Below, one piece after another: positions 2 through 63,933 of a DNA stretch of 64,000 nt. A model generated the notes under the pieces. The model did no database searches. It was not told where the DNA came from and saw only the letters and a program-made list of their open reading frames with translations. Origin of the DNA: a virus (Duplodnaviria; Heunggongvirae; Uroviricota; Caudoviricetes); IMG/VR virus record IMGVR_UViG_3300009678_000054, positions 35,854-99,853 of that record. One strand, given 5' to 3'. Within the stretch, counting starts at the first letter, position 1. Each line of letters begins with the position of its first letter. A program made the position numbers and the translations under genes.

Positions 2-703
2 GCCTTTGATTCTGATTATGCTGAAAAACTCGGTATTGACATAAATAAGCTGCTTATTAGTCAACCTGATTATGGTGAGCAAGCTTTAGAGATAGCTGAC
101 CGTCTTATTATCACAGGTAAGGTAAACGTAGTAGTGATTGATTCGGTAGCCGCACTTGTACCGAAAGGTGAACTGGAAGGAGAGATGGGCGACAGTAAAA
201 TGGGCCTACACGCAAGATTAATGTCTCAAGCACTTAGAAAGCTAACCGCAACAGTTAGTAAAACTGGAACGATTTTAATTTTCATCAACCAGCTTCGTGA
301 TAAGATCGGAGTAATGTTCGGTAGCCCGGAAACTACCACAGGTGGAAACGCATTGAAGTTCTATGCTTCAGTTCGTCTTGACGTTAGAAAAATGACAATT
401 TTGAAAGATGGTGACCAGGCTGTTGCCAATCATGTGAAGGTAAAAGTAGTTAAGAATAAAATAGCCCCACCTTTCCGATCTGCAGAATTCGATATTCGTT
501 ATGGCGAAGGTATTGATCGGTATGCTGAAGTACTGGATATTGGTGTACAACTTGAAATTATAAATCAGTCAGGCAGTTGGTTTAGTTATAATAACGATAA
601 GCTCGGCCAGGGTCGTGAAAGTGTACGTCAACTTCTTAAAGATAACGAAGAACTGTACACTGAAATTCGCAAAACCATTTACGATAAACTTTTTAAATCA
701 TAA
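2..703 (+). CDS. recA: RecA recombinase, C-terminal two thirds (5' end lies outside the window)
   Basis: Translation [73 protein letters not shown] matches the conserved RecA core (L2 loop, [15 protein letters not shown]). The ORF is open to position 2. Confidence 0.85.
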
Positions 704-2979: not shown

Positions 2980-2987
2980 ATTTAGTT

Positions 2988-3470
2988 TTATTCAGGATTA
3001 CCATTGAAACTACGAACCCAATAAGCTATACTTAATGGAGCAAGACCATTGACAGTATCGCAGTGAACAGCTACATTATCAGAATCGGTATAAAATAACG
3101 CTTCCTGGTTCTCAACTGAGAAACCACTTCCAGGTAAACCGTCTGAAGCAGTACTAATAACATTATTACATATTTGATAAAGTCCAGGTGGAACTTTCAA
3201 TATTTGAGGACTTGATTTAGAAACATCGGTTTCTACTATAATATTACCATCAGCGTCTTTGAACTGAATTTGATAAGCATCGGGTGAAGCGTTACTAAGG
3301 CTACCACCGTTAGTATCATTTACCCAATAAACAGTAATAACGTTACAGCAATCGTACTGCGCCTTATCAAGCACAGCACGAATTGCATTAAGTTCATTGT
3401 CAGTAAGCTTTAATTTTTTCAAAGCTTGTTTCAAAAAATTATTTACTGACCTATTTTTCGCAGCTAACAT
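2988..3470 (-). CDS. hypothetical protein (160 aa) in lysis cassette
   Basis: ORF only. Tightly packed between the endolysin and membrane-protein genes. Confidence 0.4.
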   Translation of the reverse strand: MLAAKNRSVNNFLKQALKKLKLTDNELNAIRAVLDKAQYDCCNVITVYWVNDTNGGSLSNASPDAYQIQFKDADGNIIVETDVSKSSPQILKVPPGLYQICNNVISTASDGLPGSGFSVENQEALFYTDSDNVAVHCDTVNGLAPLSIAYWVRSFNGNPE

Positions 3471-6407: not shown

Positions 6408-9400
6408 TTATTCGTTAGTATCTTCTCCTTTTCCGGCACTTGGTTTCAAAAACCAAATGCTATTTCTACCATAGAACTGTAACAATCTTTCAGGTTCAAC
6501 AGTGTTTATATACTGACGATAAAGAGGCAAAGCACGTCCCCATTTAACTGCAGCTTTATTTTGACCAACCTGGTAACCAGGACCAGAACGCTCGTACTCA
6601 GCCATTGGGTCAGAAATAGATTGAGACACCGCATCCCACACCTTGTCTACAGTGGATACCGATGCAGCCGGGTTAGTTACAACCTTAGCCAGGTCCATTG
6701 TACCAACAATCGGAGTATATTGAACCCCTTCAGAGATCAATCTACGGCTTATCAGAGCCATGTAATCATTGAATTCTTCTTCATCGTCATCGTCGTCAAA
6801 CGCTTTAAACGAGAACATAAGAAGGGCCATAGCAGCGAAATCTGCAGCTATCTTACGGAAAGCGTATTTCTCATCTTCAGTTAATTGAGCCATACGTTTT
6901 TGCTCGATAATACTTCTAACCTGAGTTACTAACCCGTTTATAAAAGTACGATAATAACCTTCAGTATAATTACCCGTTTGATAGTTTACATATCCTTTAC
7001 GGTAACGAGAAGCAAATCCTGTATAAATGTGCTTTCTAAACATTAGAAGAAGACTACCCCACCATTGACGCTGCAGCAAAGCTTTGTCCAACTTGTTATA
7101 GTTACCGTGCATTTGCGTATTCACGAATTTTACCGTTTGACGGAAATCTTCATCATCCTGCGTTGTCCACTTTGTATCAGACATTTTAAGCTGACCTTTG
7201 TATTCACGCTCTTTAGCCTCGTATAAGGATATTTCCTCGCCACTATTCAGCTTCACTTTTTTATGTAGCATCATCGCAATAAGCATCTGAGTTTGTACAT
7301 AATGTTCACCACCTTGCTGCATGAAGAAAAAATGATTTCTACGGAACAATTTATTTGCCAAGCTACCAGAAATCTTTTTTCCAAGCTCATCATAAAGTTC
7401 ACCCTGGATAGCATCATAATCAATTAACATTTCAGAAATGAATGATGGTTTACCACCTTTTAAATCTTCAAAGAAATCACCTTTACCAAGTGCAGTGAAA
7501 TAAATACCTTCAGCTTTTAACGCATTACCTATATTGAAATAACGACCTGCCGCACCTTCAACAAAGGTTTCGAGCTTCGCACGAATTATGTTAGTTACAC
7601 CAGCAACCGGGTTAAGAGCAAGTTGCTGGAAAGCTGTAATCAAACCAAGTGTATTGGCAGACTTTTTAACTGACCAGTTCCAATCCTTACGCAACATAGT
7701 TACTTTGTAATCTTTTAACTTACGTTCTTCACCAACTTTGAAACCATGATAGTCAAGATCAGGAATACCTATATGCTCAGACATGTCACTGAAACCTTTA
7801 ATGATTTCAATCTTACCATTCTTATCTTCAACTTTGAACTTAGAATTGAACATTTGAATAGCTGCCTTTTTCATAGGCTGACCATATACAACATCGTTTA
7901 GGAATGAATCAAGTTGTTCGTTAATTCTTGCAGCATCAACCTGCATAGCTTTACGTTCTGCTTTAGATAACGCTTTCAAACCGTTAGACGTAAGTTTAAC
8001 AACTTGGCGAGAATCAATACTCAAAGATGCGTTACCACCAATGAAATTTTTCAAAATGTTTACGTGAGGTTCAATCTGAGAAATAGAATTGTATTTTTGA
8101 GCAGACACAGCGTACTTAACAACTGAATTCAGTAGATCAAAACTTAAATCATTATCCTCAACCATTCTAGTAAATGGTAAAGGAACAGTTCTTCTTTCCT
8201 TCAAGTTATTTTTCTGACTGAAATAAACCTGGTCATCTTCTCCAACAAACAATCTTATTTTCTCAAGTATATCCTGAGCAACTTTACCCTTCTCAACCTT
8301 TGCTGTTATAATACTTCTCTGAGGAATAATACCATATTTTAATCCAGCCTTACCAGCAAGTTCATTAGCTTGTTTATATGAACCATAAAGTTCTTTAAAC
8401 AATGGGTCAGATTGCAATGCTACAAAATCAGGATTCTTATACGTAGTAGCCGGGATATAACCATTACCCGTTTTCACAGTATGAACAGAATACCAAGCGT
8501 CACGAGCTTTCTTCCAGGCAGCGTATTTAACAACATCGTTCTTTGATGGAGCGACACCTATCTTTTCTTCCATTGTTCTTTTCGCCTTGTAAAATTCATC
8601 CCACTTGTATTCTTCGTGGAAAGCCCAACGTTTTACATAATGATACTCAGGTTCACCTTTTTGATTTACACCTTTGTATTCATATGAATCAGCTTGACGC
8701 ATATATTTTGCATAGAAATCAAAATGGTCCTTATTAGTATTGAATACAGGAAGACCTCTGGTTCTTCGTACCAATTTTGTAAGTTTATCCTGAATAGTTA
8801 AACCTTTCTTTAAAGCCCCGGTATATTCTTCTACAACTGATCTAGCTATCAACGAAGACAACGGGTCACGAGAATGCAACAGTGGTCCTAAGAATTGCGT
8901 TACAGCACTAGCGTCCTTTTTGGCAGTTGTAATATAAGTAGCAAGTTCACGCTTGAAAGCTTCTTCTAAAATCTGACGCTTACTCGGAGTTAAATTATTA
9001 GCTTGCATTTCCTTTTGTACAGCTTCATACGTAGCTTTAGATACGATGTTAAAAGGTTTATCAGTCGCAAGAGCCTGGTTGATCGCACTATTTGCGTGAG
9101 GGAATAACCAGTTTACAATAAGTTCCTTTGCATAAGCTTTGTAATCATTTATCAAAGCAGCTTCACGACGATAATTCTTTTTCAAATTACCAATGCTATC
9201 TTCAGCATCAGGAAATTCATCTAGTACAGAAGTAATAAGCAAATCAACATCCTCGTACAAAGTAATGCAATCTTCTATCTCATTTAATAACTGACTCAAC
9301 TTAGCAAGATCATCCTTTGATTTTGTTCTCTTAGCATCGAAAGCATCTTTGAATTCTTGAAACTTTTCATTCAATTTTTTCAAATTGACAGCAGACGATA

Positions 9401-12400
9401 TAATAAAATTGTCAATAGCTTTCAAGTCTCTTGGGTCAGCAGCCAATAACTCAGCAATCTTACCAAAGAAAAACTTTCTTCTTAAAACATCTTCACTCAT
9501 GTTTTTTGTACGTAAAACTGCATCAACCTGTAACTTCTGACGAACGTTATTAATAACTTCATCAAATGTATTTGAAAGTTTAGAAAAACGCTCAGCGTGA
9601 TTTTCAGAACTTACCTTTTTATTCAGATCGAATACAAAAGACGGATTAACTATCAAGTCAGCAAATTCCTGCATACTCATGTTGCTACGGAAATTCTGAG
9701 TCATGATACCCATCTTCGCAAGTGTAGTTTTTAGCCAATCAATAAACTTACCGAACAATGTTTTACCTTCATTGTTTTCTAAATCTTGACGAGCAGACAT
9801 ACGACCAAGCTCCATTACCAAAACTTCATCCCACTGGTCAGATTCACTAAGCTCTGGATAAGCAGTTTTAACGTATTCAAATGATTCTTTACCGCTCTCA
9901 CTATTCTTAACTTCTTCCATTAACGCATTATACAGTTCAGGGTTATCCTTTTTAATAACGTCAATGAAAGGGTGAATAACCTCGTGGAATGGGGTATCAG
10001 GGCTTACATAAGCTTCGTTGATTGTGATAACACCGTTTGCATATTTACCACGCCAGAAACTTCCTGGTTCGTTTACCACAACCACTTTCACACCGAATTT
10101 GTTTTTCAACATACGAATAACGTTATCCAATGAGAAACGTTTCTTCTGTTCAGCAGTAAACTGTTCTTCATGTAACTTCTGAAACTCTACATCAGTATCA
10201 ACAGGTTTCCAACCAATATCTTCAGGTTTTTCTTGCTCTGAATTGTTCGCAGTTACTTTGGCCAAAACTTGTTCATCGAACTCAACTTTAACGGCTTGCG
10301 GATGAGGTTTAACACCTATACGTTCTTCACCAATTTCTTCGGATAACAATGAAAATTCAAGAGGTAATAATCCTATCTTAGCAACAGGATATTGAGGGTC
10401 AGCAAGAGGTGTATCGTTTTCATCAATAACTCTTGTAACCTCACCTGCTTCATTTCTAGCTTGTGGTCCAAACTCGATCATACTTGTATGACCACGAGTT
10501 TCTACAGTCATAGCTCTACGTGCCAACGGTGTATACATACGAGCATGAACATCCCAGGCGTTTTCTTCACCAATAGGACCAAAACCATTTCCTCTTTCAG
10601 CATGTCCGAACAGATCATGCACACCTCTAAATACGTCATTAACCAATAACGCATTTCCTTTAAGATCAGTTAAACCACTTTCTTGTAAGAAAGGATTCTC
10701 TTTTCTTTGTTGATCGGTGATCGCATTTGGTCCGTAATACTTATTAGTTGACAGGATATAAAAATGTTTATTATCTCTAATGTCAGCCATTGCGCTTGGA
10801 GCATCAGCATAGGGTTCACCAGCACCATCAAACAATTCAAAAGTATATCCTTTACTTATAAGGAAATTATATTGGTCAATTGTTTCATTTGCGAAAGCTT
10901 CATATGATGCCTTTACTTCAGGATTATTAGGCTCATCTTTCATCGCCATGTAAGCATCGGCGATCTTCTTTCCAAATTGTACATCAATAGTATATATCTT
11001 AACACCAGGAGAAATATTAAGTCCTTTTTCACTCTTGTATTCATCAGCAATAGCCTTAACTTCTTCGTTAGGTTCTGTAAATAAAGAACTATCTGCAGTC
11101 AACTTACTTTGAGAAGAACTATATTTAGATGTAATTGTACCACCAATAGACGCTAAAAACTCATTAACTTTTTGTTGTGAATCAGAAGCAATATATCCTT
11201 TGAAATTTCCAGCATCCCAGTAAGCAGCAACATGTTTGAAATTAGATTTCAAATTATCAATCAAATCCTGTTCAGATGTCTGGTTAGTTTTCATACCAGC
11301 AAGAACTTGCTCGGCCTTTTCAGTAATAGCTTCTTGTGGGAATGATTGAAGTTTATAAGCATCTTTCTTCTTTTCATTAGCCAACCATTCTTCTTCAGAT
11401 TCAGGAACAATCTTTTCCTCAAGTAATACAATACCATCAGGTTTAATATATTTACTTTTTATTTCTTTAATGAACTGTTTGCGTTCAGGAGAAATAAATT
11501 GAAACACCATGCTCTCATGTACCACATCAGCTTTTTCTGCAGGAACATGTTTAGGATAAGTAACACCAGTTTCTTCGTCAGTATATGATTCATAGAAAGC
11601 TTCTTTCACATAATCACTACCTTCTACAGGATTAGCGTTATGCGCTTTCTGCATTTCTTCATTAACGTCCAGGTTAATTGATTTTATTTTACCTTCAGAA
11701 CCGAGAGTGATTGCTTTAACAAAACCACCTTCAGAACCACCAATGTCATAAATTAATCCACCATTCGCATACATGTTTTGCAATGCAGCACCAACTTTGA
11801 TTTGTGTTTCTCTAAATGTAGGAATAGACGCAGCTATATGATTATCAAAATTACCTTTGAATTTATCATATATCTTTTTAAACTTTGCCTGAAGTATATT
11901 AAATGATAATATCGGAGACCATTCTTTTTTAGGTTTAAACTTTTCACTTTTACCGCTAACGACATCAGAAAAGAATTCCTGAGTCTTACCAGTTTTATTA
12001 ACATCCAGTTTTACATCGTCTTCAACCACTCCGGGAGTTGTCTCTCCGGTTGGTAACTGTTGTCCCCGTATATCACCGCTATCGAGTTCTCTCTGTTGAA
12101 TGGCAGCTTCAGTTGTTCGCACACCGCTTTTATTTGCTCCTGTGTTGGTTGGTCTATTCCACTGAGGATTTCCGAAGCTGAATCGTCCAATAATGTTTGT
12201 GATTGCTTGCTCATGAGTTAACTTTTTATTTTGAACTTGTTCCCAAATTTTATTTATTTCATCACGGTTAGCATCCGTCTTATCTGCTTCTTTAATCAGC
12301 AAACGAATAGCTTCCCATGTAATACTTTGTACTTCACGAGGACGTAAACCTTTCTCTGCGCCTATTTCCTGATATGCTTGCTTTATAACGGCATAAATAG

Positions 12401-55244: not shown

Positions 55245-55762
55245 GGGTCTTCAAAATCTCCAACCTCGTCTATTTCTTCAAAGTCATCTTCGTAAGCAGA
55301 CGTATCAAATTTAGCATTGGATGCAGGGAGAGCTTTCGTTGGAGATTGTTTTGTTTTTTTAGAACTTCCCTTTTCTTCTTTTTTCGATTGTTCGTCTTCG
55401 TCATCTTCCATGAAGCCCGGTATCTCGTGTCCACCACGAACATCTTTTTCACCAGTTTCTTCTTCATTGACAATTTTCTTCAGACGATTTATTTCCATCA
55501 ACATGTTGGGAAGTTCTTTGAGTGTATCACGCAAACATTTAATCTGCGTTTCTTCAGAAGATATAACCTTGATGATGGGATTGCCACGAGTTGATTCATA
55601 AACTTCAATACGATCTTTAATACCACCATCGAGTTTATCTTCAACCCATTTCTGTAATTGCTTGCATTTTTTCTCAAGCCATTCCAGATCGTAACCTATA
55701 TAATTTGTTTTTTTCTTTGCTGTTGCCATAGTTATTAATTGAGGCCGTAGGCAGATTTGCAC
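55241..55762 (-). CDS. small acidic protein (173 aa), terminase small subunit candidate
   Basis: Immediately upstream of the large terminase and overlapping it by 4 nt. Charged, helical, with an acidic C-terminus. Confidence 0.4.
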   Translation of the reverse strand: MQICLRPQLITMATAKKKTNYIGYDLEWLEKKCKQLQKWVEDKLDGGIKDRIEVYESTRGNPIIKVISSEETQIKCLRDTLKELPNMLMEINRLKKIVNEEETGEKDVRGGHEIPGFMEDDEDEQSKKEEKGSSKKTKQSPTKALPASNAKFDTSAYEDDFEEIDEVGDFEDP

Positions 55763-55814
55763 TGCCGCATACTGGTTTTGCAGACCAGCGCATTACTATC
55801 TTTGCTATACGGCC

Positions 55815-59412: not shown

Positions 59413-59416
59413 ATTG

Positions 59417-59488
59417 CACGCACTGATGGATTCGAACCACCAACTTCGGTTTTGGAGACCATTGTTTTACCGTTGCTACTAAGCACGT
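59417..59488 (-). tRNA. tRNA-Trp (anticodon CCA)
   Basis: Cloverleaf folded by hand. Acceptor ACGTGCT/AGTGCGT, anticodon loop CUCCAAA, T-arm GGTGG-TTCGAAT-CCATC. Confidence 0.7.
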
Positions 59489-59729
59489 ATAATCACATTT
59501 TGTCTTCCCTAAAGGAATTGCACCCTTGTTTCCGGGTTCGTAGCCCGGTGTACTGTCTGCTGTACTAAAGGAAGTGGGGTGATAGGACGATACTGCCTCG
59601 TCTTCTTCATGTTCACAGCATGACGCTTCACTTTAAAGCTTCAACCACAGAACCCAGTCGTGGTACTGCCCCACGTTCCCATGCTTCAAAGGCAAGTATA
59701 ATACTTTTATACTACCTGGGTTTATAAAG

Positions 59730-59800
59730 TTTCCATCCATTGAATCGAACAACATCCTGGTGGGTCAGAGCCACCCGTACTACCGTTATACGAGACGGAA
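59730..59800 (-). tRNA. tRNA-Gln (anticodon CTG)
   Basis: Acceptor TTCCGTC/GATGGAA with U1:A72 (typical of bacterial tRNA-Gln). Anticodon stem GGTGG/CCACC with loop CTCTGAC. T-loop TTCGATT. Confidence 0.65.
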
Positions 59801-59987
59801 ATTTGCAATTTGCGAATTGCGAAATGTGTGCAAAGTTGGTTCTGCCCCAACTCCCCCGGATTTTCAGTCCGGTGCTTCTACTAAGTTAGCTTCATGCACA
59901 AGCTCCGAATTTTGCTCCATCGACTTCTACGATGACTCACTTCTCCCCAATGGAAGGTGAGCGGTGTATTACATTCGGCAACCGATG

Positions 59988-60071
59988 AGCCTTGTGTAGG
60001 ATTCAAACCTACGATGACGTTACCGTGTCTGTTTACAAAACAGGTCCAATCGTTCGCTATGGGAACAAGGC
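59988..60071 (-). tRNA. atypical tRNA (84 nt): best fold gives anticodon UGU (Thr) but with a 15-nt class-II-like extra arm
   Basis: Perfect 7-bp acceptor GCCTTGT/ACAAGGC. T-arm GTAGG-TTTGAAT-CCTAC. Anticodon region CCTGT-TTTGTAA-ACAGA, alternatively a 6-bp perfect stem CTGTTT/AAACAG with a 3-nt loop. Confidence 0.45.
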
Positions 60072-60135
60072 ATAAACCCTTTCTGTGCTTGCCGGACTAA
60101 CTACGCCGTTCTATGAAAGAGAAACAGTCTCCAAC

Positions 60136-60210
60136 GTCAGGAATGTCAGCGTCGAACTGACCTGTCCATGATTCCAAGTCACGGATGCCTAAGCCCCCGG
60201 TCAATTCCTG
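60136..60210 (-). tRNA. tRNA-Pro (anticodon TGG)
   Basis: Acceptor CAGGAAT/ATTCCTG (perfect). Anticodon stem CGTGA/TCATG with loop CTTGGAA. T-arm GTCAG-TTCGACG-CTGAC. Confidence 0.7.
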
Positions 60211-60250
60211 AAAATAAAAAACCCCCTCGTGGACACCGAGAGGGTTAGTA
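60211..60250 (-). terminator. rho-independent terminator (minus strand) abutting the 5' end of tRNA-Pro
   Basis: Hairpin ccctctcggtgtccacgaggggg. On the minus strand it is followed by TTTTTTATTTT, immediately before the tRNA-Pro 5' end. Confidence 0.55.
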
Positions 60251-60354
60251 TAACGTGAAAAGCAGAAAACTATGAATTAGTCACGTACACGCAGCCCTCT
60301 CATGCCTTGCGGCTGAGGTTGCCAAAATCGTGTATGGGTCGTGAACATTTTCAT

Positions 60355-60420
60355 GAACTGCAATATTACAACAATTTTTGAAATCAACAAATTTTATAAT
60401 CAAATTTGATGATATTTTTT
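60355..60420 (-). promoter_or_regulatory. AT-rich repeated element (copy B); promoter candidate within the tRNA array
   Basis: See copy A (53101-53175). About 65 nt with shared blocks ATTACAACAATTTTTG and TAATCAAA..TGaTGATATTT. Confidence 0.4.
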
Positions 60421-60422
60421 GT

Positions 60423-60503
60423 TGCCCAGGCAGGAATCGAACCTACATAGCCGAAGGCGAGGGTTTTACAGACCCCTGATTTAGCCAATTTACCATCTGT
60501 GCA
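60423..60503 (-). tRNA. tRNA-Tyr (anticodon GTA), class II
   Basis: Anticodon arm GGGGT-CTGTAAA-ACCCT (bacterial Tyr loop CUGUAAA). Extra arm CGCCTTCGGC. T-arm GTAGG-TTCGATT-CCTGC. Acceptor TGCACAG/CTGGGCA (one mismatch). Confidence 0.65.
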
Positions 60504-60541
60504 ATATTATGCGGAGATTAATAAGTCTATTCTCCGCACTG

Positions 60542-60630
60542 CGGAAGCAAAAGGATTCGAACCTTCGGACCGGGTTACCCCGATCTCTACTTTAGCAAAG
60601 TAGCGCAATAAACCTCTCTACCATGCTTCC
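60542..60630 (-). tRNA. tRNA-Ser (anticodon GCT), class II
   Basis: Acceptor GGAAGCA/TGCTTCC. Anticodon CTACT-TTGCTAA-AGTAG. Long extra arm AGATCGGGGTAACCCGGTCCG. T-loop TTCGAAT. Confidence 0.75.
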
Positions 60631-60633
60631 ATG

Positions 60634-60721
60634 CGGAGAACCAGGGACTCGAACCCCGAACACGCTTGCGGCGTGCTACCTGTTTTCAAGACAGGCCCTT
60701 CGTCCAGTACAGACGCTCTCC
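60634..60721 (-). tRNA. tRNA-Ser (anticodon TGA), class II
   Basis: Acceptor GGAGAGC/GTTCTCC. Anticodon CCTGT-CTTGAAA-ACAGG. Extra arm TAGCACGCCGCAAGCGTGTT. T-arm CGGGG-TTCGAGT-CCCTG. Confidence 0.75.
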
Positions 60722-60725
60722 ATTG

Positions 60726-60805
60726 TCACCCACCCAGGAGTCGAACCTGGAAAAGCTGCGGGTTTAAGCCGCTTAACTGTGCCAATTTGCATAAGCCAGT
60801 GGGCG
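60726..60805 (-). tRNA. atypical tRNA-like gene (80 nt), anticodon loop CTTAAAC (UAA, Leu-type) with an extended ~25-nt D region and short variable region
   Basis: Acceptor CGCCCAC/GTGGGTG. T-arm CCAGG-TTCGACT-CCTGG. Anticodon stem GCGG/CCGC. The D region TGGCTTATGCAAATTGGCACAG is shared with the paralogue at 60931-61010. Confidence 0.45.
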
Positions 60806-60839
60806 ATATAGACAACTTGTCTAAATTGTGTCTAAATTG

Positions 60840-60927
60840 TACGGGTAGAGGGATTCGAACCCCCACGCTACTATTATTTCGCCTCTGATTCTAAGTCAGA
60901 GTTGACTACCAATTCCAGCATACCCGC
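60840..60927 (-). tRNA. tRNA-Leu (anticodon TAG), class II
   Basis: Anticodon arm CTCTGA-CTTAGAA-TCAGAG. Extra arm GCGAAATAATAGTAGCGT. T-arm GGGGG-TTCGAAT-CCCTC. Acceptor GCGGGTA/TACCCGT. Confidence 0.65.
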
Positions 60928-60930
60928 ATG

Positions 60931-61010
60931 TACCTCTGAGTGGAGTCGAACCACCAAAAGCTCAGGTTTTGAATCTGTTAGCTGTACCAATTTACATAAG
61001 CCACAGAGGT
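60931..61010 (-). tRNA. atypical tRNA-like gene (80 nt), paralogue of 60726-60805; anticodon region CAG-ATTCAAAAC-CTG (contains UCA and CAA; assignment ambiguous)
   Basis: Perfect acceptor ACCTCTG/CAGAGGT. T-arm GGTGG-TTCGACT-CCACT. D region TGGCTTATGTAAATTGGTACAG is near-identical to the paralogue. Confidence 0.4.
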
Positions 61011-61038
61011 ATAAAAACAAAAAACCCCGGATGAAAAC
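61004..61038 (-). terminator. rho-independent terminator (minus strand) downstream of the CPBP gene
   Basis: Hairpin ccccggatgaaaacatccagggtg. On the minus strand it is followed by TTTTTTGTTTTTAT. Confidence 0.55.
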
Positions 61039-61230
61039 ATCCAGGGTGTAAGATCGTATTAACTGAAAAATGTTACGATATAAACATACTATCCCCGGAC
61101 GCTGCGTACAACGACAAACTGAGATAATATGAGGATAATCGTTTCATCTTTGATAATTAGAAACTGCACCATGCCGTGCAGTCGGTCCGGTAATACTATT
61201 ACCAGAGGGGTTTAAGCAATGCAAACATAC

Positions 61231-61254
61231 GAAAAAAAATCGAGACTACCAAAT
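61231..61254. repeat. 24-nt direct repeat gaaaaaaaatcgagactaccaaat (copy 2)
   Basis: Identical to 58418-58441. Immediately 3' of the CPBP gene. Confidence 0.6.
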
Positions 61255-61728
61255 CGTAATTTTAATTCCGTAATTTGATACAATGGTAGGGAAAACAAAT
61301 GTCAAAGAAAAATTCCAAAGAAAATGCAGGAAGGTTGAAGACCAGTAGCTATAATTGTTCTTGAGATATACCCAGGAAAATAGTAGTCCACCAACTCCTT
61401 GAATCAATAAACTGATCGGTCCAGAACCATGACCCCATCCGAAAATAACTGAGCTTATTATGATAATAGGCCATGTTACATCTCTACCCGGTTTGCTAAA
61501 TCTTTTAGCAATTAGTAGCGGAGCGTGTCGAAAAGCAAGTTCTTCCCATAAAGGGGCAAAAATACAAGAAAAGAAAAAAATACCAATTGGGGTGAGCGAG
61601 TAACCTCCATACGGACTAAAGGACGTTACAGCCTTCAAACCTTTGATAATGAGAAATAACCAGAGAATAGAAACAGAAAATGCAGCGAAGATAACAATTA
61701 GCTTAGAAACGAATTTGGGAAGATTCAT
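61246..61728 (-). CDS. CPBP/CAAX-protease family intramembrane metalloprotease (Abi-type), 160 aa
   Basis: Multi-pass membrane protein with the three CPBP motifs: EExxxR (WEELAFRH), FxxxH (FGWGHG) and HxxxN (HFLWNFS). Confidence 0.6.
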   Translation of the reverse strand: MNLPKFVSKLIVIFAAFSVSILWLFLIIKGLKAVTSFSPYGGYSLTPIGIFFFSCIFAPLWEELAFRHAPLLIAKRFSKPGRDVTWPIIIISSVIFGWGHGSGPISLLIQGVGGLLFSWVYLKNNYSYWSSTFLHFLWNFSLTFVFPTIVSNYGIKITIW

Positions 61729-61791
61729 TATTTAACTGTTTAGGGATGAACGATACAGTAATATAATGAAAATAAATGACAAAACCAAATA

Positions 61792-61869
61792 TGGTGGACC
61801 AGGTGGGAATCGAACCCACTTCACGCTGCTTGCAAAGCAGCATCGCTGTGCCTTAGAACATGCCAGCCC
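61792..61869 (-). tRNA. tRNA-Ala (anticodon TGC), 3' CCA encoded
   Basis: Acceptor GGGCTGG/CTGGTCC with the G3:U70 Ala identity pair. Anticodon GCTGC-TTTGCAA-GCAGC. T-arm GTGGG-TTCGATT-CCCAC. Terminal ACCA. Confidence 0.7.
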
Positions 61870-62149
61870 ATAAAAACGAGGAAATAGATTTTCACTAACC
61901 CGATTTAGCGGCCTCGTTGTTGGCATTCCTGGTACTGCCCCAGGCTTTTCAGCTTATCAGGCTGACGTGCTGACTAATCTACTAAACGCCAATGATAACA
62001 GCAGGATTTGCCAGATGGATTTACACTTTCGTTACCTAGCCAGCATCCATTCACTGTTATTGTTGACTCTGCTGGACCTGCACCAGCACCCTGCACATTA
62101 TGAGTGTGCTGCTCCGCTATTTGAGCTAAGAGTCAATAGAATCATGATA

Positions 62150-62232
62150 TTGCACCTGCCCGAACCGGAATCGAACCGATTCAGTTGGGGACTCGAACCC
62201 CGCCTCACATGATAACCGTCCAACGGTAAGCT
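62150..62232 (-). pseudogene. tRNA-like remnant with two tandem T-arm-like hairpins; no consistent acceptor pairing
   Basis: CGGGG-TTCGAGT-CCCCA and ATCGG-TTCGATT-CCGGT lie within 40 nt of each other. I could not fold a complete cloverleaf. Confidence 0.3.
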
Positions 62233-62234
62233 TG

Positions 62235-62308
62235 TCGAAACGATGAGAATCGAACTCACCCCGACCTGGATTGACAATCCAGCGATTACACCAGTAAACT
62301 GCGCTTCG
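62235..62308 (-). tRNA. tRNA-Asp (anticodon GTC)
   Basis: Acceptor CGAAGCG/CGTTTCG. Anticodon CTGGA-TTGTCAA-TCCAG. T-arm GTGAG-TTCGATT-CTCAT. Confidence 0.7.
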
Positions 62309-62314
62309 ATATAG

Positions 62315-62390
62315 TACTGATTACGGAGATCGAATCCGTATTTTTGGGTTGAAAGCCCAACGTCCTAAGTCCAGTTTAGACGAAACCAGC
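62315..62390 (-). tRNA. tRNA-Glu (anticodon TTC)
   Basis: Anticodon TTGGG-CTTTCAA-CCCAA. D-arm TCGTCTA..AGGAC resembles E. coli tRNA-Glu. T-arm ACGGA-TTCGATC-TCCGT. Confidence 0.65.
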
Positions 62391-62435
62391 AGGTCTCGCC
62401 TTCTTCTGTTAAAGTTGACATATAAAAAGTTTAAG

Positions 62436-62508
62436 AGCGACAAGACAGAATCGAACTGTCATCCCCAACTTGGCAAGCTGGTTTAATGAGCCATTATACG
62501 ATTGTCGC
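62436..62508 (-). tRNA. tRNA-Gly (anticodon GCC)
   Basis: Perfect acceptor GCGACAA/TTGTCGC. Anticodon CCAGC-TTGCCAA-GTTGG. T-arm GACAG-TTCGATT-CTGTC. Confidence 0.75.
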
Positions 62509-62536
62509 ATAAAAAGGATACCAGGGCTACGTGTTT

Positions 62537-62770
62537 CTATTGTTCCTGTTCCTGATCTTCGCTAAATCCTTTTATAATTTTCAAAATATCTTTCGATGTT
62601 ACTGTAACGCATTTTCCTGCGATTTCAGCTACCCTTTTTTTCGGGATGTCGTAGTGATCTCGGTGAAACCAACACCTCTTAATCCCTAAATCTAGTGCCA
62701 TAGCGTGCAAATTAGCTATGGAGTACGGAATGCAGACCAGGTGTTGCTTATTATCGCAGTAATAAGTCAC
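62537..62770 (-). CDS. small conserved hypothetical protein (77 aa)
   Basis: ORF between tRNA genes. Contains H..C..H..C pattern (CIPYSIANLHAMALDLGIKRCWFHRDHYDIP). Confidence 0.4.
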   Translation of the reverse strand: MTYYCDNKQHLVCIPYSIANLHAMALDLGIKRCWFHRDHYDIPKKRVAEIAGKCVTVTSKDILKIIKGFSEDQEQEQ

Positions 62771-63078
62771 TTTAATCCGGTTCTCAGTATCAGCGTATCT
62801 TTGTAATTACAAACTGCATTTCCGTGCCAATCAACTCTATTACAAAAAAATATTACCATTCTATTTCCATCAGGTAGAGGAATTTCACCTCTGCTATCTT
62901 GCATGATTGTATGTTTACTCCATCCATTACCACATCTTACTCTACCCATTGAGTAACAGCTTGTAAATAAAAACAAAAATAATACGCTAAACTTGCCCAT
63001 ATAAAATTTTAAGAGCGATACTTCGGATTCGAACCGAAACGTCCAGTTTGGAAGACTGGTGTGCTGGCCATTAAACAC
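62767..63078 (-). CDS. small secreted/lipoprotein-like protein (103 aa)
   Basis: Signal-peptide-like segment KFSVLFLFLFTSCYSMG after a short N-terminal region. Overlaps the downstream ORF by 4 nt. Confidence 0.4.
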   Translation of the reverse strand: MFNGQHTSLPNWTFRFESEVSLLKFYMGKFSVLFLFLFTSCYSMGRVRCGNGWSKHTIMQDSRGEIPLPDGNRMVIFFCNRVDWHGNAVCNYKDTLILRTGLK

Positions 63079-63087
63079 CAGTAACGC
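63014..63087 (-). tRNA. tRNA-Gly (anticodon TCC)
   Basis: Anticodon CCAGT-CTTCCAA-ACTGG. T-arm TTCGG-TTCGAAT-CCGAA. Acceptor GCGTTAC/GTATCGC (one mismatch). Overlaps the 5' end of ORF 62767..63078, so that ORF's start is doubtful. Confidence 0.6.
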
Positions 63088-63092
63088 TTATG

Positions 63093-63184
63093 TTGCGGCA
63101 GTGGGATTCGAACCCACGATGGTAAGGTATGCACCTAATTTCAGGTTATGAGCCTGATGAGGTCGGCCACTGCTCCACACCGCA
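63093..63184 (-). tRNA. atypical tRNA (92 nt): anticodon CAU (Met/Ile2-type) with a ~23-nt class-II-like extra arm
   Basis: Acceptor TGCGGTG/TGCCGCA. Perfect anticodon arm TCAGG-CTCATAA-CCTGA. Extra arm AATTAGGTGCATACCTTACCATC (stem AGGT/ACCT). T-arm GTGGG-TTCGAAT-CCCAC. Confidence 0.45.
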
Positions 63185-63197
63185 ATGTAGCTGTAGG

Positions 63198-63341
63198 GGT
63201 AGGATTTGAACCTACATAAGGGGATTTAATTTGATACACAAGCAAGTTTATACATTAGTGGTCAACCCGATTATATCAAATCTATTTCCTGGTCCTCGTC
63301 CACGAGACAAGTGGATGCGTTTGCCAATTTCGCCACCCTAC
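63198..63341 (-). ncRNA. structured RNA candidate with a tRNA-like 3' end (T-arm plus acceptor), whose 7-nt acceptor complement lies 144 nt upstream
   Basis: 3' end GTAGG-TTCAAAT-CCTAC-CCCTACA. A perfect complement TGTAGGG lies at 63334-63340. I could not fold a canonical 75-nt tRNA from the proximal sequence. Confidence 0.3.
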
Positions 63342-63541
63342 AAAGTTTCAAAACACTTGTCGCAAAGACAAATTGTTTTTGATATTTTTTTAAAAGAAGT
63401 ATATAAAAGGTTACTAAAAGTCTGGTCACCTTCTGTAGCATCTAGTTCTTCCAAAGAATCAATTTTTACAACTTTAACCTGATTGTAGTTACCGTCCGTA
63501 ATTGATACAACTTTTTTACATTTTATACAAGTATCTTTCAT
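63338..63541 (-). CDS. small zinc-ribbon protein (67 aa)
   Basis: CxxC ... CxC..C pattern (CIKCKK ... CLCDKC). Confidence 0.35.
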   Translation of the reverse strand: MKDTCIKCKKVVSITDGNYNQVKVVKIDSLEELDATEGDQTFSNLLYTSFKKISKTICLCDKCFETL

Positions 63542-63596
63542 GTCCTAAATATAGCATAAATATAGGACATTTCCAAATTTTAAAAGAACTTTTTTG

Positions 63597-63683
63597 AGGG
63601 CAGTGTAGGATTTGAACCTACGTGAACGGTACTCCCGCCTTGAAGTTAACAGCTTCCTGCTCTGGCCTCTGAGCTAACCACCC
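63597..63683 (-). tRNA. atypical tRNA (87 nt): anticodon GUU (Asn) with a ~19-nt class-II-like extra arm
   Basis: Acceptor GGGTGGT/ACTGCCC. Canonical D-arm GCTC-AGAGGCCA-GAGC. Anticodon GGAAG-CTGTTAA-CTTCA (Asn-type loop CUGUUAA). Extra region AGGCGGGAGTACCGTTCAC. T-arm GTAGG-TTCAAAT-CCTAC. Confidence 0.45.
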
Positions 63684-63789
63684 TTAATGTTGGTTGTAGC
63701 CAACAAATTGTATGTTTTTGTTTGTTATAACCAATGTTAAATATAATGAACAAAAACCCGGTGTTTTGTCAATTATATTTAACGTTGTT

Positions 63790-63860
63790 TTCCTGAGAGG
63801 ATTCGAAACCCTGCCTAGCAATTTAGAAAAATGTGATGCTATCCACTACACCACAGGAAA
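63790..63860 (-). tRNA. tRNA-like gene, anticodon undetermined (irregular anticodon and T-arm pairing)
   Basis: Perfect 7-bp acceptor pairing TTTCCTG/CAGGAAA and a T-loop TTCGAAT. The putative anticodon region is a 5-bp stem TAGCA/TGCTA enclosing a 16-nt loop. Confidence 0.3.
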
Positions 63861-63861
63861 G

Positions 63862-63933
63862 TACTTCATCCAGGAATTGAACCCGGTACGCACAGGATGT
63901 AAACCTGCCGCTCTGCCGATGAGCTAATAGACT
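63862..63933 (-). tRNA. tRNA-Val-like (anticodon TAC); acceptor stem has two mismatches
   Basis: D-arm GCTC-ATCGGCA-GAGC. Anticodon GCAGG-TTTACAT-CCTGT. T-arm CCGGG-TTCAATT-CCTGG. Acceptor AGTCTAT/ATGAAGT pairs poorly. Confidence 0.45.

What the first reader, a model, noticed from the sequence alone, without database searches (positions are those of the whole stretch)
59988..60071. tRNA-like genes with class-II-length extra arms but anticodons of class-I amino acids (UGU, CAU, GUU)
Three genes (59988-60071, 63093-63184, 63597-63683) have good acceptor stems, canonical T-arms and perfect or near-perfect anticodon arms reading Thr-, Met/Ile2- and Asn-type anticodons. Each carries a 15-23-nt extra region between the anticodon and T arms, able to form its own stem (for example AGGT/ACCT). 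In bacteria only Leu, Ser and Tyr (and Sec) tRNAs have long variable arms. These could be chimeric or mis-charging tRNAs, decoys for host tRNA-targeting nucleases (anticodon nucleases), or tRNAs with a processed insert.
Basis: seen in the sequence. Interest (0 to 1): 0.6.

Follow-up and report, generated by a model that had tools for sequence, protein, structure and literature searches.

The report
Phage tRNAs with an extra arm
Three tRNA genes of an environmental crAss-like phage (Thr, Asn and an initiator-like Met) really carry the extra hairpin arm that bacteria normally reserve for Leu/Ser/Tyr tRNAs, and the same oddity is common in large phages, including phiKZ, without my finding any paper that describes it.

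Summary
tRNA-Asn(GUU) at 63597-63683 and tRNA-Met(CAU) at 63093-63184 pass Rfam's tRNA threshold (53.1 and 49.5 bits). tRNA-Thr(UGU) at 59988-60071 scores only 20.1 bits, but ARAGORN calls it at a 5% lower threshold, and its orthologues in related phages are called outright.

Close relatives keep all three arms, with compensatory changes in the Thr and Met arm stems. More distant relatives carry normal 73-75-nt genes at the same array positions.

The trait is widespread. Among the first ~120 pattern matches in IMG/VR, 92 (Asn), 37 (Met) and 24 (Thr) were validated long-arm tRNAs. Cultured phages have them too (phiKZ, E. coli phage 4MG, Cellulophaga phi4:1).

Across viral examples the arm stem covaries strongly. 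Acceptor and discriminator identity elements match the cognate short tRNAs, not Ser or Tyr.

Best reading: these are working Thr, Asn and initiator-like Met tRNAs rebuilt with a class-II-like arm. Mis-charging and splicing are unlikely. A counter-defence role is plausible but untested.

The parts
59988..60071 (-). tRNA-Thr(UGU), 84 nt to the discriminator U73. Anticodon at 60035-60037. G1:C72 and C2:G71 present. U13xU22 mismatch gives a 3-bp D stem. T loop is UUUGAAU.
   Evidence: Rfam 20.1 bits, below the gathering score. ARAGORN -ps95 calls tRNA-Thr(tgt). Orthologues L004 3520-3603 and L005 2620-2704 are called by default. The three-sequence consensus fold is a five-arm cloverleaf in which 10 of 24 pairs have compensatory changes.
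60013..60027 (-). Variable arm of tRNA-Thr: C-ACG-GUAA-CGU-CAUC (3-bp stem, GNRA tetraloop, 4-nt 3' tail).
   Evidence: The stem is ACG/CGU in the window and L005, and AAC/GUU in L004. Two of three pairs changed on both sides and the GUAA loop is kept. The same layout recurs in 39 viral long-arm Thr tRNAs.
63093..63184 (-). tRNA-Met(CAU), initiator-like, 92 nt to A73. Anticodon at 63148-63150. U1:A72 and A11:U24 present. C13xC22 mismatch. Two G:C pairs next to the anticodon loop.
   Evidence: ARAGORN 93 nt. Rfam 49.5 bits. Its 5' half aligns with the normal-length Met1 of L006 and L010. Orthologue of 94 nt in L337 at 11946-12039.
63118..63140 (-). Variable arm of tRNA-Met: AAUU-AGGU-GCAU-ACCU-UACCAUC (4-bp stem).
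   Evidence: The stem is AGGU/ACCU in the window and GGGA/UCCC in L337. Two of four pairs changed on both sides.
63597..63683 (-). tRNA-Asn(GUU), 87 nt to the discriminator U73. Anticodon at 63648-63650. Normal 4-bp D stem.
   Evidence: ARAGORN 88 nt. Rfam 53.1 bits. MFE fold is a five-arm cloverleaf. An 88-nt orthologue in L338 at 7840-7927 has the same arm stem. Syntenic genes in L006, L007 and L010 are 73 nt.
63622..63640 (-). Variable arm of tRNA-Asn: A-GGCGG-GAGUA-CCGUU-CAC (5 pairs, two of them G.U).
   Evidence: ARAGORN drawing. MFE fold. L338 has the same stem with a different loop, GCAUA. The layout resembles the viral examples L135 and L177, A-GGCC-GNAA-GGUU-CAC.
63191..63342 (-). 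152-nt tRNA-like gene 'X' between Asn and Met. It has an ~82-nt variable arm, G73 and the non-canonical anticodon loop UUGUCUC. Related to the finding but a distinct entity.
   Evidence: Rfam tRNA 40.3 bits. MFE fold is a five-arm cloverleaf. Orthologues in L337, L007 and L010.
59416..63933 (-). tRNA array that holds these genes: about 30 tRNA or tRNA-like genes, running on beyond the window end. Gene order is conserved with related phages.

Best explanation
These are genuine phage tRNA genes that keep their cognate identities (Thr-UGU, Asn-GUU and an initiator-like Met-CAU). They have acquired a structured hairpin in the variable region, at the position where class-II tRNAs carry their long arm.

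Shown:
- The genes and arms exist, and related phages conserve them with compensatory changes.
- More distant relatives carry normal-length genes at the same array positions, so the arm is a derived trait of this subclade.
- The window's genes belong to a large, phage-enriched population of long-arm class-I tRNAs. In that population the arm stems covary, and acceptor and discriminator identity elements equal those of the normal cognate tRNAs.
- In Thr (population-wide), and in this window's Met gene, the D stem is also remodelled to the class-II-like 3-bp form.

Inferred:
- ThrRS, AsnRS and MetRS charge them. These enzymes read mainly the anticodon plus acceptor or discriminator bases.
- They work in translation, because ribosomes and EF-Tu already accept class-II shapes.

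Speculative (about 0.3): the arm is kept because it changes how tRNA-binding proteins other than the synthetase see the molecule. The most likely case is that it sterically hinders host tRNA-cleaving defence nucleases that grip the anticodon-stem/D-loop face. Alternatively it marks phage tRNAs as 'self'.

Conservation and compensation:
- Thr arm: 2 of 3 pairs compensatory.
- Met arm: 2 of 4 pairs compensatory.
- Asn arm stem is identical in L338, while the T stem and acceptor stem changed compensatorily.

Derived state:
- Syntenic Asn, Met and Thr genes are 73-75 nt in L006, L007 and L010.

Breadth in IMG/VR (first ~120 pattern sites per scan):
- 92 of 121 are validated long Asn, 37 of 119 Met(CAU), 24 of 120 Thr(UGU), 13 of 120 Lys(UUU), 10 of 121 Gly(UCC) and 3 of 121 Phe(GAA).
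- In 185,579 prokaryotic genomes only 12 of 120 Asn sites validate. Half of those are archaeal, and two of the bacterial ones (L229, L262) sit in dense tRNA arrays.

Cultured phages:
- phiKZ tRNA-Asn is 87-89 nt.
- E. coli phage 4MG has Asn at 86 nt and Lys at 84 nt.
- Cellulophaga phage phi4:1 has an 89-nt Asn annotated 'tRNA-Pseudo'.

Arm is a real helix:
- In 20 Asn genes with 17-nt arms, 85% of cells pair, against 52% in shuffles (0 of 500 reach it) and 30-49% when partners are slid.
- 26 cells show double-sided changes against 7.3 expected.
- 25 of 82 arm loops are GNRA tetraloops.

Identity:
- Long Thr: G1:C72 100%, C2:G71 100%, U73 or A73. This matches short Thr and differs from Ser (G2:C71 94%, G73 69%).
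- Long Asn: G73 84%, equal to short Asn at 84%; Tyr has A73 in 96%.
- Long Met(CAU): 66% have C.A, U:A or U.U at positions 1:72, which is initiator-like.
- The window's Thr has G1:C72 and C2:G71.

Core remodelling:
- The 13:22 pair forms in 82% of short class-I tRNAs but in 1 of 38 long Thr. In Leu it forms in 4%.
- The window's Thr has UxU and its Met has CxC at 13:22.

Other points:
- These are the only copies of these isoacceptors in the part of the array seen.
- Asn codons make up 6.6% of the phage's structural-gene codons.

Background (literature):
- Asn identity is the anticodon plus G73. A CAU anticodon is sufficient for MetRS. Thr identity is acceptor pairs plus the anticodon (PMC9976931).
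- PARIS AriB cleaves exactly Lys(UUU), Thr(UGU) and Asn(GUU) at positions 40/41 and is modelled to contact the D loop (PMC12409363).
- Phage tRNAs are already argued to be nuclease-resistant replacements (PMC10264068, PMC11555353).
Against: - No expression, processing or aminoacylation data exist for any of these genes.
- The window's Thr gene is below Rfam's threshold and has a C56U T loop.
- The window's Asn has U73 rather than the G73 identity element. Its normal-length relatives also have U73, as do 12-13% of viral Asn genes.
- AsnRS and ThrRS are class-II synthetases that face the variable-loop side of the tRNA, so an arm might interfere with charging.
- The counter-defence idea is only circumstantial. 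Long arms also occur in Gly, Phe, Cys and others, and Lys(UUU), the main PARIS target, is not enriched. Phage T5, whose tRNAs were shown to defeat PARIS, has a normal-length Asn.
Confidence: 0.62

Rival explanations
1. Tolerated, functionless expansion. The variable loop is the one tRNA segment where length is free. On this view phage tRNAs, under weak or fluctuating constraint, simply accumulate insertions there. Pairing is then maintained only because an unpaired 15-23-nt loop would be harmful. The tRNAs still work as Thr, Asn and Met tRNAs.
For: - The same array shows many other departures from canon: non-canonical T loops, a short-arm Leu and an 82-nt arm.
- Long arms occur at a low level in nearly every class-I isotype.
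- Arm sequences and lengths are very diverse.
Against: - There is a strong isoacceptor bias: Asn far above Met, above Thr, above the rest.
- A stereotyped layout recurs: about 1 nt, a 3-5-bp stem, a tetraloop that is often GNRA, then a 3-4-nt tail ending in C.
- The 13:22 pair is lost in concert with arm gain.
- Arms persist, with compensatory changes, across phages whose terminases are only 78-82% identical.
- The trait is strongly enriched in viruses over cells.
Confidence: 0.22
2. Mis-charging tRNAs. On this view they are class-II tRNAs in disguise, like nematode nev-tRNAs or bacterial allo-tRNAs. SerRS, LeuRS or TyrRS would charge them because of the long arm, so Ser, Leu or Tyr would be inserted at Thr, Met or Asn codons.
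For: - SerRS identity rests mainly on the size of the extra arm, not the anticodon (PMC9976931).
- Each of GUU, CAU and UGU is one base (position 36) away from a class-II anticodon: Tyr GUA, Leu CAA, Ser UGA.
- Many viral long-arm Asn genes are closest overall to Tyr or Ser genes, although that analysis is biased by length.
- Long Thr genes have a class-II-like D stem.
Against: - Long Thr genes have C2:G71 in 100% of cases, never the G2:C71 seen in 94% of Ser genes, and U73 or A73 rather than G73.
- Long Asn genes have G73 like normal Asn, not the A73 of Tyr.
- The window's Met gene is orthologous to normal-length genes, and the Asn gene aligns with them more moderately.
- Arm stems are short. 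Mean best stem is 3.75 bp for Asn, with 10% reaching 5 bp; for Ser the mean is 4.9 bp, with 65% reaching 5 bp.
- Asn codons are 6.6% of structural-gene codons and this is the only phage Asn tRNA seen, so mis-reading would be costly.
Confidence: 0.08
3. Non-translating decoys or pseudogenes. On this view the RNAs are made but serve only to soak up or inhibit host tRNA nucleases, or they are decaying genes.
For: - The window's Thr gene is sub-threshold for Rfam.
- GenBank marks the Cellulophaga phage phi4:1 homologue as tRNA-Pseudo.
- Authors of the PARIS study raise competition by overexpressed viral tRNAs as a possibility (PMC12409363).
- The neighbouring gene X has an anticodon loop unfit for decoding.
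Against: - Acceptor stems are perfect or near-perfect 7-bp helices. Anticodon loops are canonical (U33, A37) and T stems are intact, all maintained by compensatory changes.
- Cognate identity elements are conserved across the whole population.
- No normal-length copy of the same isoacceptor is present in the part of the array seen.
Confidence: 0.06
4. Processed insert. On this view the extra segment is an intron-like element removed after transcription, giving a normal 73-76-nt tRNA.
For: Archaeal tRNAs can carry introns at non-canonical positions. Half of the validated prokaryotic hits were archaeal.
Against: - No bacterial or phage machinery is known that splices the variable loop (own knowledge).
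- No RNA ligase or endonuclease was found among the 20 window ORFs scanned.
- The insert is a small hairpin, often closed by a GNRA tetraloop, whose stem covaries like a structural arm.
- It is accompanied by class-II-type remodelling of the D stem.
- Rfam finds no ribozyme or intron.
Confidence: 0.02

Closest known systems
Canonical class-II (type II) bacterial tRNAs: Leu, Ser, Tyr, Sec
   Same: - An extra stem-loop emerges from the variable region between the anticodon and T arms.
- In the Thr and Met genes, the D stem has 3 bp with an unpaired 13:22.
- Arm length (15-23 nt) lies in the class-II range.
   Different: - The anticodons belong to class-I amino acids.
- Acceptor and discriminator elements are those of Thr, Asn and initiator Met.
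- Stems are short (3-5 bp), closer to Tyr and Leu arms than to Ser arms.
Nematode nev-tRNAs and other eukaryotic noncanonical V-arm-containing tRNAs (PMC3333845; Hamashima et al. 2016, cited in PMC5389517)
   Same: A long variable arm is combined with an anticodon that is not Leu, Ser or Tyr.
   Different: - nev-tRNAs are Leu-type class-II tRNAs that keep Leu charging and so mis-decode.
- Here the identity elements are cognate to the anticodon, the genes are viral, and at least the Met gene descends from a normal-length class-I orthologue.
Bacterial allo-tRNAs and (8/4) tRNAs of bacteria and phages (PMC5389517)
   Same: Non-standard cloverleaves with long V arms, found in bacteria and in phage tRNA clusters.
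   Different: - allo-tRNAs have 8/4 or 9/3 acceptor/T branches, a Sec-like D arm, and G73 or U73 Ser identity.
- The window's genes have the standard 7/5 branch.
Nuclease-resistant phage tRNA variants: T5 tRNA-Lys/Thr/Asn against PARIS AriB, T5 tRNA-Tyr against retron PtuAB, mycobacteriophage anticodon-loop variants (PMC12409363, PMC11555353, PMC10264068)
   Same: - These are phage-encoded copies of the isoacceptors that defence nucleases attack. Thr-UGU and Asn-GUU are AriB targets.
- The phage copies differ structurally from host tRNAs while keeping decoding.
   Different: - The known escapes are point substitutions in the anticodon stem-loop or D loop, not an added arm.
- T5's own Asn has a normal 5-nt variable loop.
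- No cleavage data exist for long-arm tRNAs.
Type I (short-arm) tRNA-Leu of Streptomyces coelicolor (PMC6614811)
   Same: The class I / class II boundary is crossed within one isotype while the cognate synthetase still charges the tRNA. This mirrors the short-arm Leu(UAA) in this window.
   Different: The direction is opposite (loss of the arm), and the setting is cellular rather than viral.

Membership tests
tRNA (Rfam RF00005) | Cloverleaf that scores at or above the gathering score of 29 bits | tested here: met
   Asn 53.1 bits, Met 49.5 bits, X 40.3 bits.
tRNA (Rfam RF00005) | The same criterion applied to the Thr(UGU) gene at 59988-60071 | tested here: inconclusive
   Scores 20.1 bits, below 29. 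However, ARAGORN calls it at 95% threshold. Its orthologues are called by default, and all five helices are kept with compensatory changes.
Class-II tRNA architecture | Variable region longer than 10 nt that forms its own stem-loop at position 47 | tested here: met
   The variable regions are 15, 19 and 23 nt with stems of 3-5 bp. Covariation across 20 viral Asn genes supports the stem.
Class-II tRNA architecture | 3-bp D stem with 13:22 unpaired | tested here: inconclusive
   Met by Thr (UxU) and Met (CxC), but not by Asn (C13-G22). Population figures: 1 of 38 long Thr genes pair 13:22, against 53% of long Asn and 88% of long Met.
Class-II tRNA architecture | Leu, Ser, Tyr or Sec anticodon | tested here: not met
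   The anticodons are UGU, CAU and GUU, placed by both ARAGORN and the covariance model.
tRNA-Thr identity (E. coli / T. thermophilus type) | G1:C72, C2:G71, G35 and U36 | tested here: met
   All four are present in the window gene. In 39 viral long-arm Thr genes, G1:C72 and C2:G71 are each at 100%. The identity set is from PMC9976931 and own knowledge.
tRNA-Asn identity (bacterial) | GUU anticodon plus G73 | tested here: inconclusive
   The anticodon criterion is met. The discriminator is U73 in the window, and also in its normal-length relatives. G73 is found in 84% of viral long-arm Asn genes, the same as in short ones.
Bacterial initiator tRNA-fMet | 1:72 mismatch or weak pair; A11:U24; three G:C pairs closing the anticodon stem | tested here: inconclusive
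   U1:A72 is a weak pair, not the C.A mismatch. A11:U24 is present. Only two G:C pairs (30:40, 31:39) are present, followed by A29:U41. Formylation cannot be tested here.
allo-tRNA / (8/4) tRNA | 8/4 or 9/3 acceptor/T-stem branch | tested here: not met
   All three genes have 7-bp acceptor and 5-bp T stems.
Mis-decoding V-arm tRNAs (nev-tRNA-like) | Charged with Leu or Ser despite a class-I anticodon | not testable with these tools
   Only indirect evidence is available: the identity elements are cognate rather than Ser, Leu or Tyr type.
Intron-containing tRNA | An insert removed from the mature RNA, with splicing motifs or machinery present | not testable with these tools
   No RNA data are available. 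No ribozyme or intron family is matched. No ligase or endonuclease is found among the 20 ORFs scanned.

The most novel reading that the evidence does not exclude
Large phages may systematically swap the class architecture of their tRNAs. They would add a class-II-like arm to Asn, initiator Met, Thr and sometimes Lys and others, and remove it from Leu and Tyr. The result would be tRNAs still charged by the host's cognate synthetases but no longer fitting host tRNA-cleaving defence nucleases that recognise tRNA shape, such as PARIS AriB, VapC, Septu or retron PtuAB, and Schlafen-type enzymes. Alternatively the altered tRNAs might be spared by a phage-directed purge of host tRNAs. On this reading the extra arm is a counter-defence device, not decoration.
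Probability: 0.25. Interest if true: 0.85.

Novelty: new variant of a known kind. Interest (0 to 1): 0.64.

Why it matters
Textbooks and annotation tools assume that in bacteria and their viruses only Leu, Ser, Tyr and Sec tRNAs have a long variable arm. This window, and the hundreds of viral loci it led to, show that phages routinely break that rule in both directions while keeping cognate identity elements.

- It bears on how AsnRS, ThrRS, MetRS, formylase, EF-Tu, RNase P and modification enzymes tolerate an extra arm.
- It explains why some phage tRNAs are mislabelled as pseudogenes. The Cellulophaga phage phi4:1 tRNA-Asn is one example.
- It offers a concrete, testable structural candidate for how phage tRNAs evade tRNA-targeting immunity.
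- Cultured phages of Pseudomonas (phiKZ), E. coli (4MG) and Cellulophaga (phi4:1) carry such genes, so the question can be tested directly.
- Natural arm-bearing class-I tRNAs could also serve as scaffolds for tagging or orthogonal translation.

Tried and rejected
- Megablast of the array against GenBank phages found no match.
- A single-protein terminase scan of IMG/VR found nothing. A profile scan found only relatives at 56% identity or less, most without arrays.
- Contigs for three closer relatives (P0007, P0008, P0010) break at the tRNA array and were useless.
- The Phe(GAA) control scan was confounded: TGAAAA also matches the Ser(UGA) loop, and 88 of 121 sites were Ser. Gly(UCC) served as a second control.
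- A nearest-neighbour analysis to test descent from Tyr or Ser genes is biased by length. I treat it as inconclusive.
- I tried to tie the arm to the published PARIS escape by T5 tRNAs. T5 itself has a normal-length Asn. Only T5-like relatives such as SHSML-45 have an 80-83-nt version. That link is therefore not supported.
- Twenty window ORFs were scanned for synthetases, RNA ligases or tRNA-modifying enzymes, and none was found.
- Ten full-text literature searches found no description of long-arm class-I tRNAs in phages. The library lacks most subscription journals, so earlier mention cannot be excluded.
Full report
CONTEXT

The window is part of an environmental crAss-like phage.
- It encodes a crAss-type major capsid protein (PF23898), crAss tail ring proteins 1 and 2, a portal and a large terminase.
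- Its minus strand carries a dense tRNA array from about 59416 to beyond the window end. ARAGORN finds 19 tRNAs in the window. Rfam adds more at or below threshold.
- The DNA has no near match among GenBank phages.
- The terminase has many metagenomic relatives on contigs of 100-125 kb.

THE OBSERVATION

tRNA-Asn(GUU), 63597-63683, and tRNA-Met(CAU), 63093-63184:
- ARAGORN calls them at 88 and 93 nt.
- Rfam's tRNA model scores them 53.1 and 49.5 bits against a gathering score of 29.
It absorbs the extra bases as an insertion between model positions 44 and 45.

tRNA-Thr(UGU), 59988-60071, is weaker:
- Default ARAGORN misses it and Rfam gives only 20.1 bits.
- ARAGORN calls it as an 85-nt tRNA-Thr(tgt) when its threshold is lowered by 5%.
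- It has a perfect 7-bp acceptor stem and a perfect T stem.
- The low score most likely comes from a C56U change in the T loop and an unusual D arm.

Folds:
- Minimum-free-energy folds of Thr and Asn are five-arm cloverleaves.
- The Met arm appears in the consensus fold with its orthologue, but not in the single-sequence fold.

The variable regions are:
- Thr: C-ACG-GUAA-CGU-CAUC (60013-60027)
- Asn: A-GGCGG-GAGUA-CCGUU-CAC (63622-63640)
- Met: AAUU-AGGU-GCAU-ACCU-UACCAUC (63118-63140)

The observation therefore stands.

RELATIVES

I fetched the array from related phages through their terminase and GroES-like genes. Gene order is conserved: Lys, Val, Arg, Asn, X, Met, Gly, Gly, Glu, Asp, Met, Ile ... 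Leu, Leu, Ser, Ser, Tyr, Pro, Thr, Phe, Gln, His, Arg, Trp.

In phages whose terminase is about 60% identical (L006, L007, L010), the syntenic Asn, Met and Thr genes are ordinary 73-75-nt tRNAs. The 5' half of the window's Met gene aligns well with them; the Asn gene aligns more moderately. The arm is thus a derived feature of the window's subclade.

Closer phages (78-82% identity, plus one relative of unmeasured closeness reached through its GroES-like gene) keep the arms:
- Thr is 84-85 nt in L004 and L005. The arm stem changes from ACG/CGU to AAC/GUU while the GUAA loop is retained, so 2 of 3 pairs are compensatory. Across the whole molecule, 10 of 24 pairs are compensatory.
- Met is 94 nt in L337. 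The arm stem is GGGA/UCCC against AGGU/ACCU in the window, so 2 of 4 pairs are compensatory.
- Asn is 88 nt in L338, with the same arm stem, a different loop and compensatory changes in the T and acceptor stems.
- L337 carries a different long-arm Asn (86 nt, arm U-GUC-GAAA-GAC-CGCC) and a 94-nt long-arm Lys(UUU).

These genes are maintained as structured RNAs, and the arm is part of the maintained structure.

BREADTH

I scanned IMG/VR viral contigs for an anticodon loop followed, 24-36 nt later, by a GGTTCRAATCC T loop. A normal class-I tRNA cannot have that spacing. Every scan stopped at its limit of about 120 rows, so counts are relative rather than total.

Pattern sites that ARAGORN confirmed as a tRNA of 80 nt or more with the expected anticodon:

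| Isoacceptor | Confirmed / sites |
|---|---|
| Asn(GUU) | 92 / 121 |
| Met(CAU) | 37 / 119 |
| Thr(UGU) | 24 / 120 |
| Lys(UUU) | 13 / 120 |
| Gly(UCC) | 10 / 121 |
| Phe(GAA) | 3 / 121 (88 of these sites were Ser-UGA) |

The window's trio is therefore exactly the three commonest long-arm isoacceptors.

The same Asn pattern in one genome for each of 185,579 prokaryotic species gave only 12 confirmed among 120 sites. Half of those were archaeal, where non-canonical introns are expected. Two of the bacterial ones (L229, L262) lay in dense tRNA arrays of the phage or mobile-element type.

Many viral hits come from contigs of 100-400 kb. Cultured phages have them too:
- phiKZ tRNA-Asn is annotated at 89 nt (ARAGORN 87 nt).
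- E. coli phage 4MG has Asn at 86 nt and Lys at 84 nt, and a short Leu.
- Cellulophaga phage phi4:1 has an 89-nt Asn that GenBank labels tRNA-Pseudo.
- 343 GenBank records, mostly T5-like, share an 80-83-nt Asn.
- T5 itself has a normal Asn.

IS THE ARM A REAL HELIX?

Among 82 distinct viral long-arm Asn genes:
- The arm is typically 16-18 nt. The layout is about 1 unpaired base, a 4-bp stem, a tetraloop and a 3-4-nt tail.
- 67% have a contiguous stem of 4 bp or more, against 29% of shuffled arms.
- 25 of the 82 loops are GNRA tetraloops.

On an ungapped alignment of the 20 genes with 17-nt arms:
- The four stem pairs are standard pairs in 85% of cells. Shuffles give 52% (0 of 500 reach the observed value). 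Sliding the partner by 1-3 columns gives 30-49%.
- 26 cells show changes on both sides, against 7.3 expected.

Long-arm Thr and Met genes show the same kind of hairpins. The window's Thr arm (GUAA loop, CAUC tail) is typical of them.

WHICH AMINO ACID?

Across 708 viral loci:
- Long-arm Thr(UGU) genes have G1:C72 in 100% and C2:G71 in 100%, with U73 or A73. Normal Thr(UGU) genes are the same (94%, 87%). Ser genes are different: G2:C71 94%, A3:U70 74%, G73 69%.
- Long-arm Asn genes have G73 in 84%, identical to normal Asn (84%). Tyr has A73 in 96%.
- Long-arm Met(CAU) genes are enriched for C.A, U:A or U.U at positions 1:72 (66%), the initiator signature.

In the window:
- The Met gene has U1:A72, A11:U24 and the GGAGCAG D-arm motif of initiators.
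- The Thr gene has G1:C72 and C2:G71.
- The Asn gene has U73, as do its normal-length relatives.

According to the identity review PMC9976931:
- Asn identity is the anticodon plus G73.
- A CAU anticodon suffices for MetRS.
- Thr identity is acceptor pairs plus the anticodon.
- Ser identity depends chiefly on the size of the extra arm together with G1:C72 and G2:C71.

The arms here are short. Mean best stem is 3.75 bp for Asn against 4.9 bp for Ser, and 10% against 65% reach 5 bp. Cognate charging is therefore the best-supported inference and Ser, Tyr or Leu charging is unlikely. No charging experiment exists.

Asn codons are 6.6% of the phage's structural-gene codons, and these are the only phage copies of these isoacceptors in the part of the array seen. 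That also argues for working, cognate tRNAs.

CORE REMODELLING

Class-II tRNAs characteristically have a 3-bp D stem with 13:22 unpaired (own knowledge). In the viral data Leu pairs 13:22 in only 4% of genes. Frequency of a 13:22 pair:

| Group | 13:22 paired |
|---|---|
| Short class-I tRNAs | 82% |
| Long-arm class-I tRNAs | 45% |
| Long-arm Thr | 1 of 38 (short Thr 77%) |
| Long-arm Lys | 28% (short Lys 82%) |
| Long-arm Asn | 53% (short Asn 83%) |
| Long-arm Met | 88% (unchanged) |

In the window, Thr has UxU and Met has CxC at 13:22. The normal-length Thr and Met genes of L006, L007 and L010 pair there (read). Gain of the arm thus goes with a class-II-like core, at least in Thr. This is hard to reconcile with an intron or a random insertion.

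WHAT THE ARM IS FOR

This is not shown. The literature establishes three relevant points:
- Phage tRNAs can act as nuclease-resistant replacements (PMC10264068, PMC11555353).
- PARIS AriB cleaves Lys(UUU), Thr(UGU) and Asn(GUU) between positions 40 and 41. In an AlphaFold 3 model it also grips D-loop bases 16-17 (PMC12409363). An arm emerging at position 47 would protrude from that face.
- Septu and VapC52 cleave in the variable loop (abstracts listed).

The overlap of Thr-UGU, Asn-GUU and, in L337, Lys-UUU with AriB's targets is suggestive. The evidence against is real:
- Met(CAU) is more often long-armed than Thr.
- Lys is no more enriched than the Gly control.
- Known T5 escapes are point substitutions.
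- T5's Asn has a normal variable loop.

I therefore give the counter-defence role about 0.25-0.3. 'Tolerated expansion with no function' gets about 0.2. Mis-charging, decoy or pseudogene, and splicing each get below 0.1.

COMPARISON WITH KNOWN SYSTEMS

The nearest described entities are:
- nematode nev-tRNAs and other eukaryotic V-arm tRNAs (PMC3333845);
- bacterial allo-tRNAs and 8/4 tRNAs (PMC5389517);
- in the opposite direction, the short-arm tRNA-Leu of Streptomyces (PMC6614811).

The window's genes differ from the first two groups. They have standard 7/5 branches and cognate identity elements, they are viral, and at least the Met gene descends from a normal class-I orthologue.

Ten full-text searches found no paper describing long-arm Asn, Met or Thr tRNAs in phages. 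Such genes do sit, unremarked or flagged as pseudogenes, in GenBank records. I therefore rate this a new variant of a known kind. The caveat is that the searchable library omits most subscription journals.

LIMITS

- There are no RNA or biochemical data.
- Validation rests on ARAGORN.
- The 'no tRNA' sites are only a rough chance baseline.
- Small-sample compensatory counts (two or three sequences) are descriptive, not statistical.

Noticed in passing
window 63191-63342 (-); orthologues L337 11583-11735, L007 about 2900-3000, L010 about 2843-2940: A 152-nt tRNA-like gene 'X' (Rfam tRNA 40.3 bits). It has an ~82-nt variable arm, G73, a Leu-like D arm and the anticodon loop UUGUCUC, which lacks a purine at 37. 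The loop is UGUUCUC or UCGUCUC in relatives whose arm is only ~26 nt. Between the window and L337 the anticodon stem is fully compensatory and the arm segment AAUCGGGUUGACCACUAA is conserved. It resembles the 'tRNA-like stable RNAs with unknown functions' (RNA1, RNA2) annotated in phage T5.
   Followed up: partly
window 60725-60801 (-) and 60931-61001 (-); L009, L015 and L016 Tyr genes; E. coli phage 4MG (L341): The reverse anomaly: class-II isotypes with short variable loops. Leu(UAA) is 77 nt and a Leu(CAA)-like gene is 71 nt in the window. Tyr(GUA) is 72-74 nt in relatives. In 708 viral loci there are 96 distinct short Leu genes against 153 long ones, and the short ones keep the class-II-like unpaired 13:22.
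   Followed up: partly
window 59575-59650, 59651-59721, 59827-59899, 61920-61991, 59502-59574, 55741-55814, 62062-62135 (all -): Many tRNAs in the array lack the canonical U54-U55-C56 T loop. The loops are GGCAGUA or GCAGAAC in His(GUG), Gln(UUG), Phe(GAA) and Ile(GAU), and UGCAAUU, UGCAAAU or UGCAGGU in Arg(ACG), Cys and the second Met(CAU). Both ARAGORN and Rfam miss the His gene at 59575-59650; I found it only by folding the spacer.
   Followed up: partly
window 59900-59987 (-) and 62136-62233 (-): Structured spacers that are not recognisable tRNAs. The first is an 88-nt element (-25.7 kcal/mol) with a T-arm-like hairpin CAUCG-UAGAAGU-CGAUG, closed by a CCGAAU/AUUCGG helix. The second is a 98-nt element with two T-arm-like hairpins (GGGGUUCGAGUCCCC and CCGGUUCGAUUCCGG). 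They may be tRNA remnants or further tRNA-like RNAs.
   Followed up: no
L337 10957-11050: A close relative (the same genome as L005) has a 94-nt tRNA-Lys(UUU) with a long variable arm at the head of the array. Another relative, L338, has a normal-length Lys(UUU)-like gene there; I read it from the sequence and ARAGORN did not call it. The window ends before its own Lys gene.
   Followed up: partly
window 61792-61869 (-): A tRNA-Ala(UGC) of 78 nt with an encoded CCA, G3:U70 and an aberrant D arm. At a permissive threshold the region 61792-61901 also gives a weak tmRNA hit (22.9 bits, gathering score 47). In relatives a tRNA-Ile(GAU) is the last tRNA called before the Leu genes.
   Followed up: no
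window 61246-61728 (-), 62537-62770 (-), 63338-63541 (-): Small ORFs are embedded in the tRNA array: an Rce1-like CAAX-protease-family membrane protein, a DUF4031 protein and a 67-aa CxxC...CxxC protein. The last one's stop overlaps the 5' end of gene X. Rce1-like ORFs recur inside the arrays of L004 and L010.
   Followed up: no
window 134-703 (+): An ORF matching the C-terminal two-thirds of bacterial RecA plus the RecA_C domain (E 4e-63). It lies on the strand opposite to nearly all other genes at the window's start. This could mean the window begins in host DNA or in an acquired gene.
   Followed up: no
L004 3380-3464: ARAGORN calls the tRNA-Pro(UGG) of the closest large relative at 85 nt, with the anticodon at position 38. 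This may be another lineage-specific expansion. The window's Pro is 75 nt.
   Followed up: no
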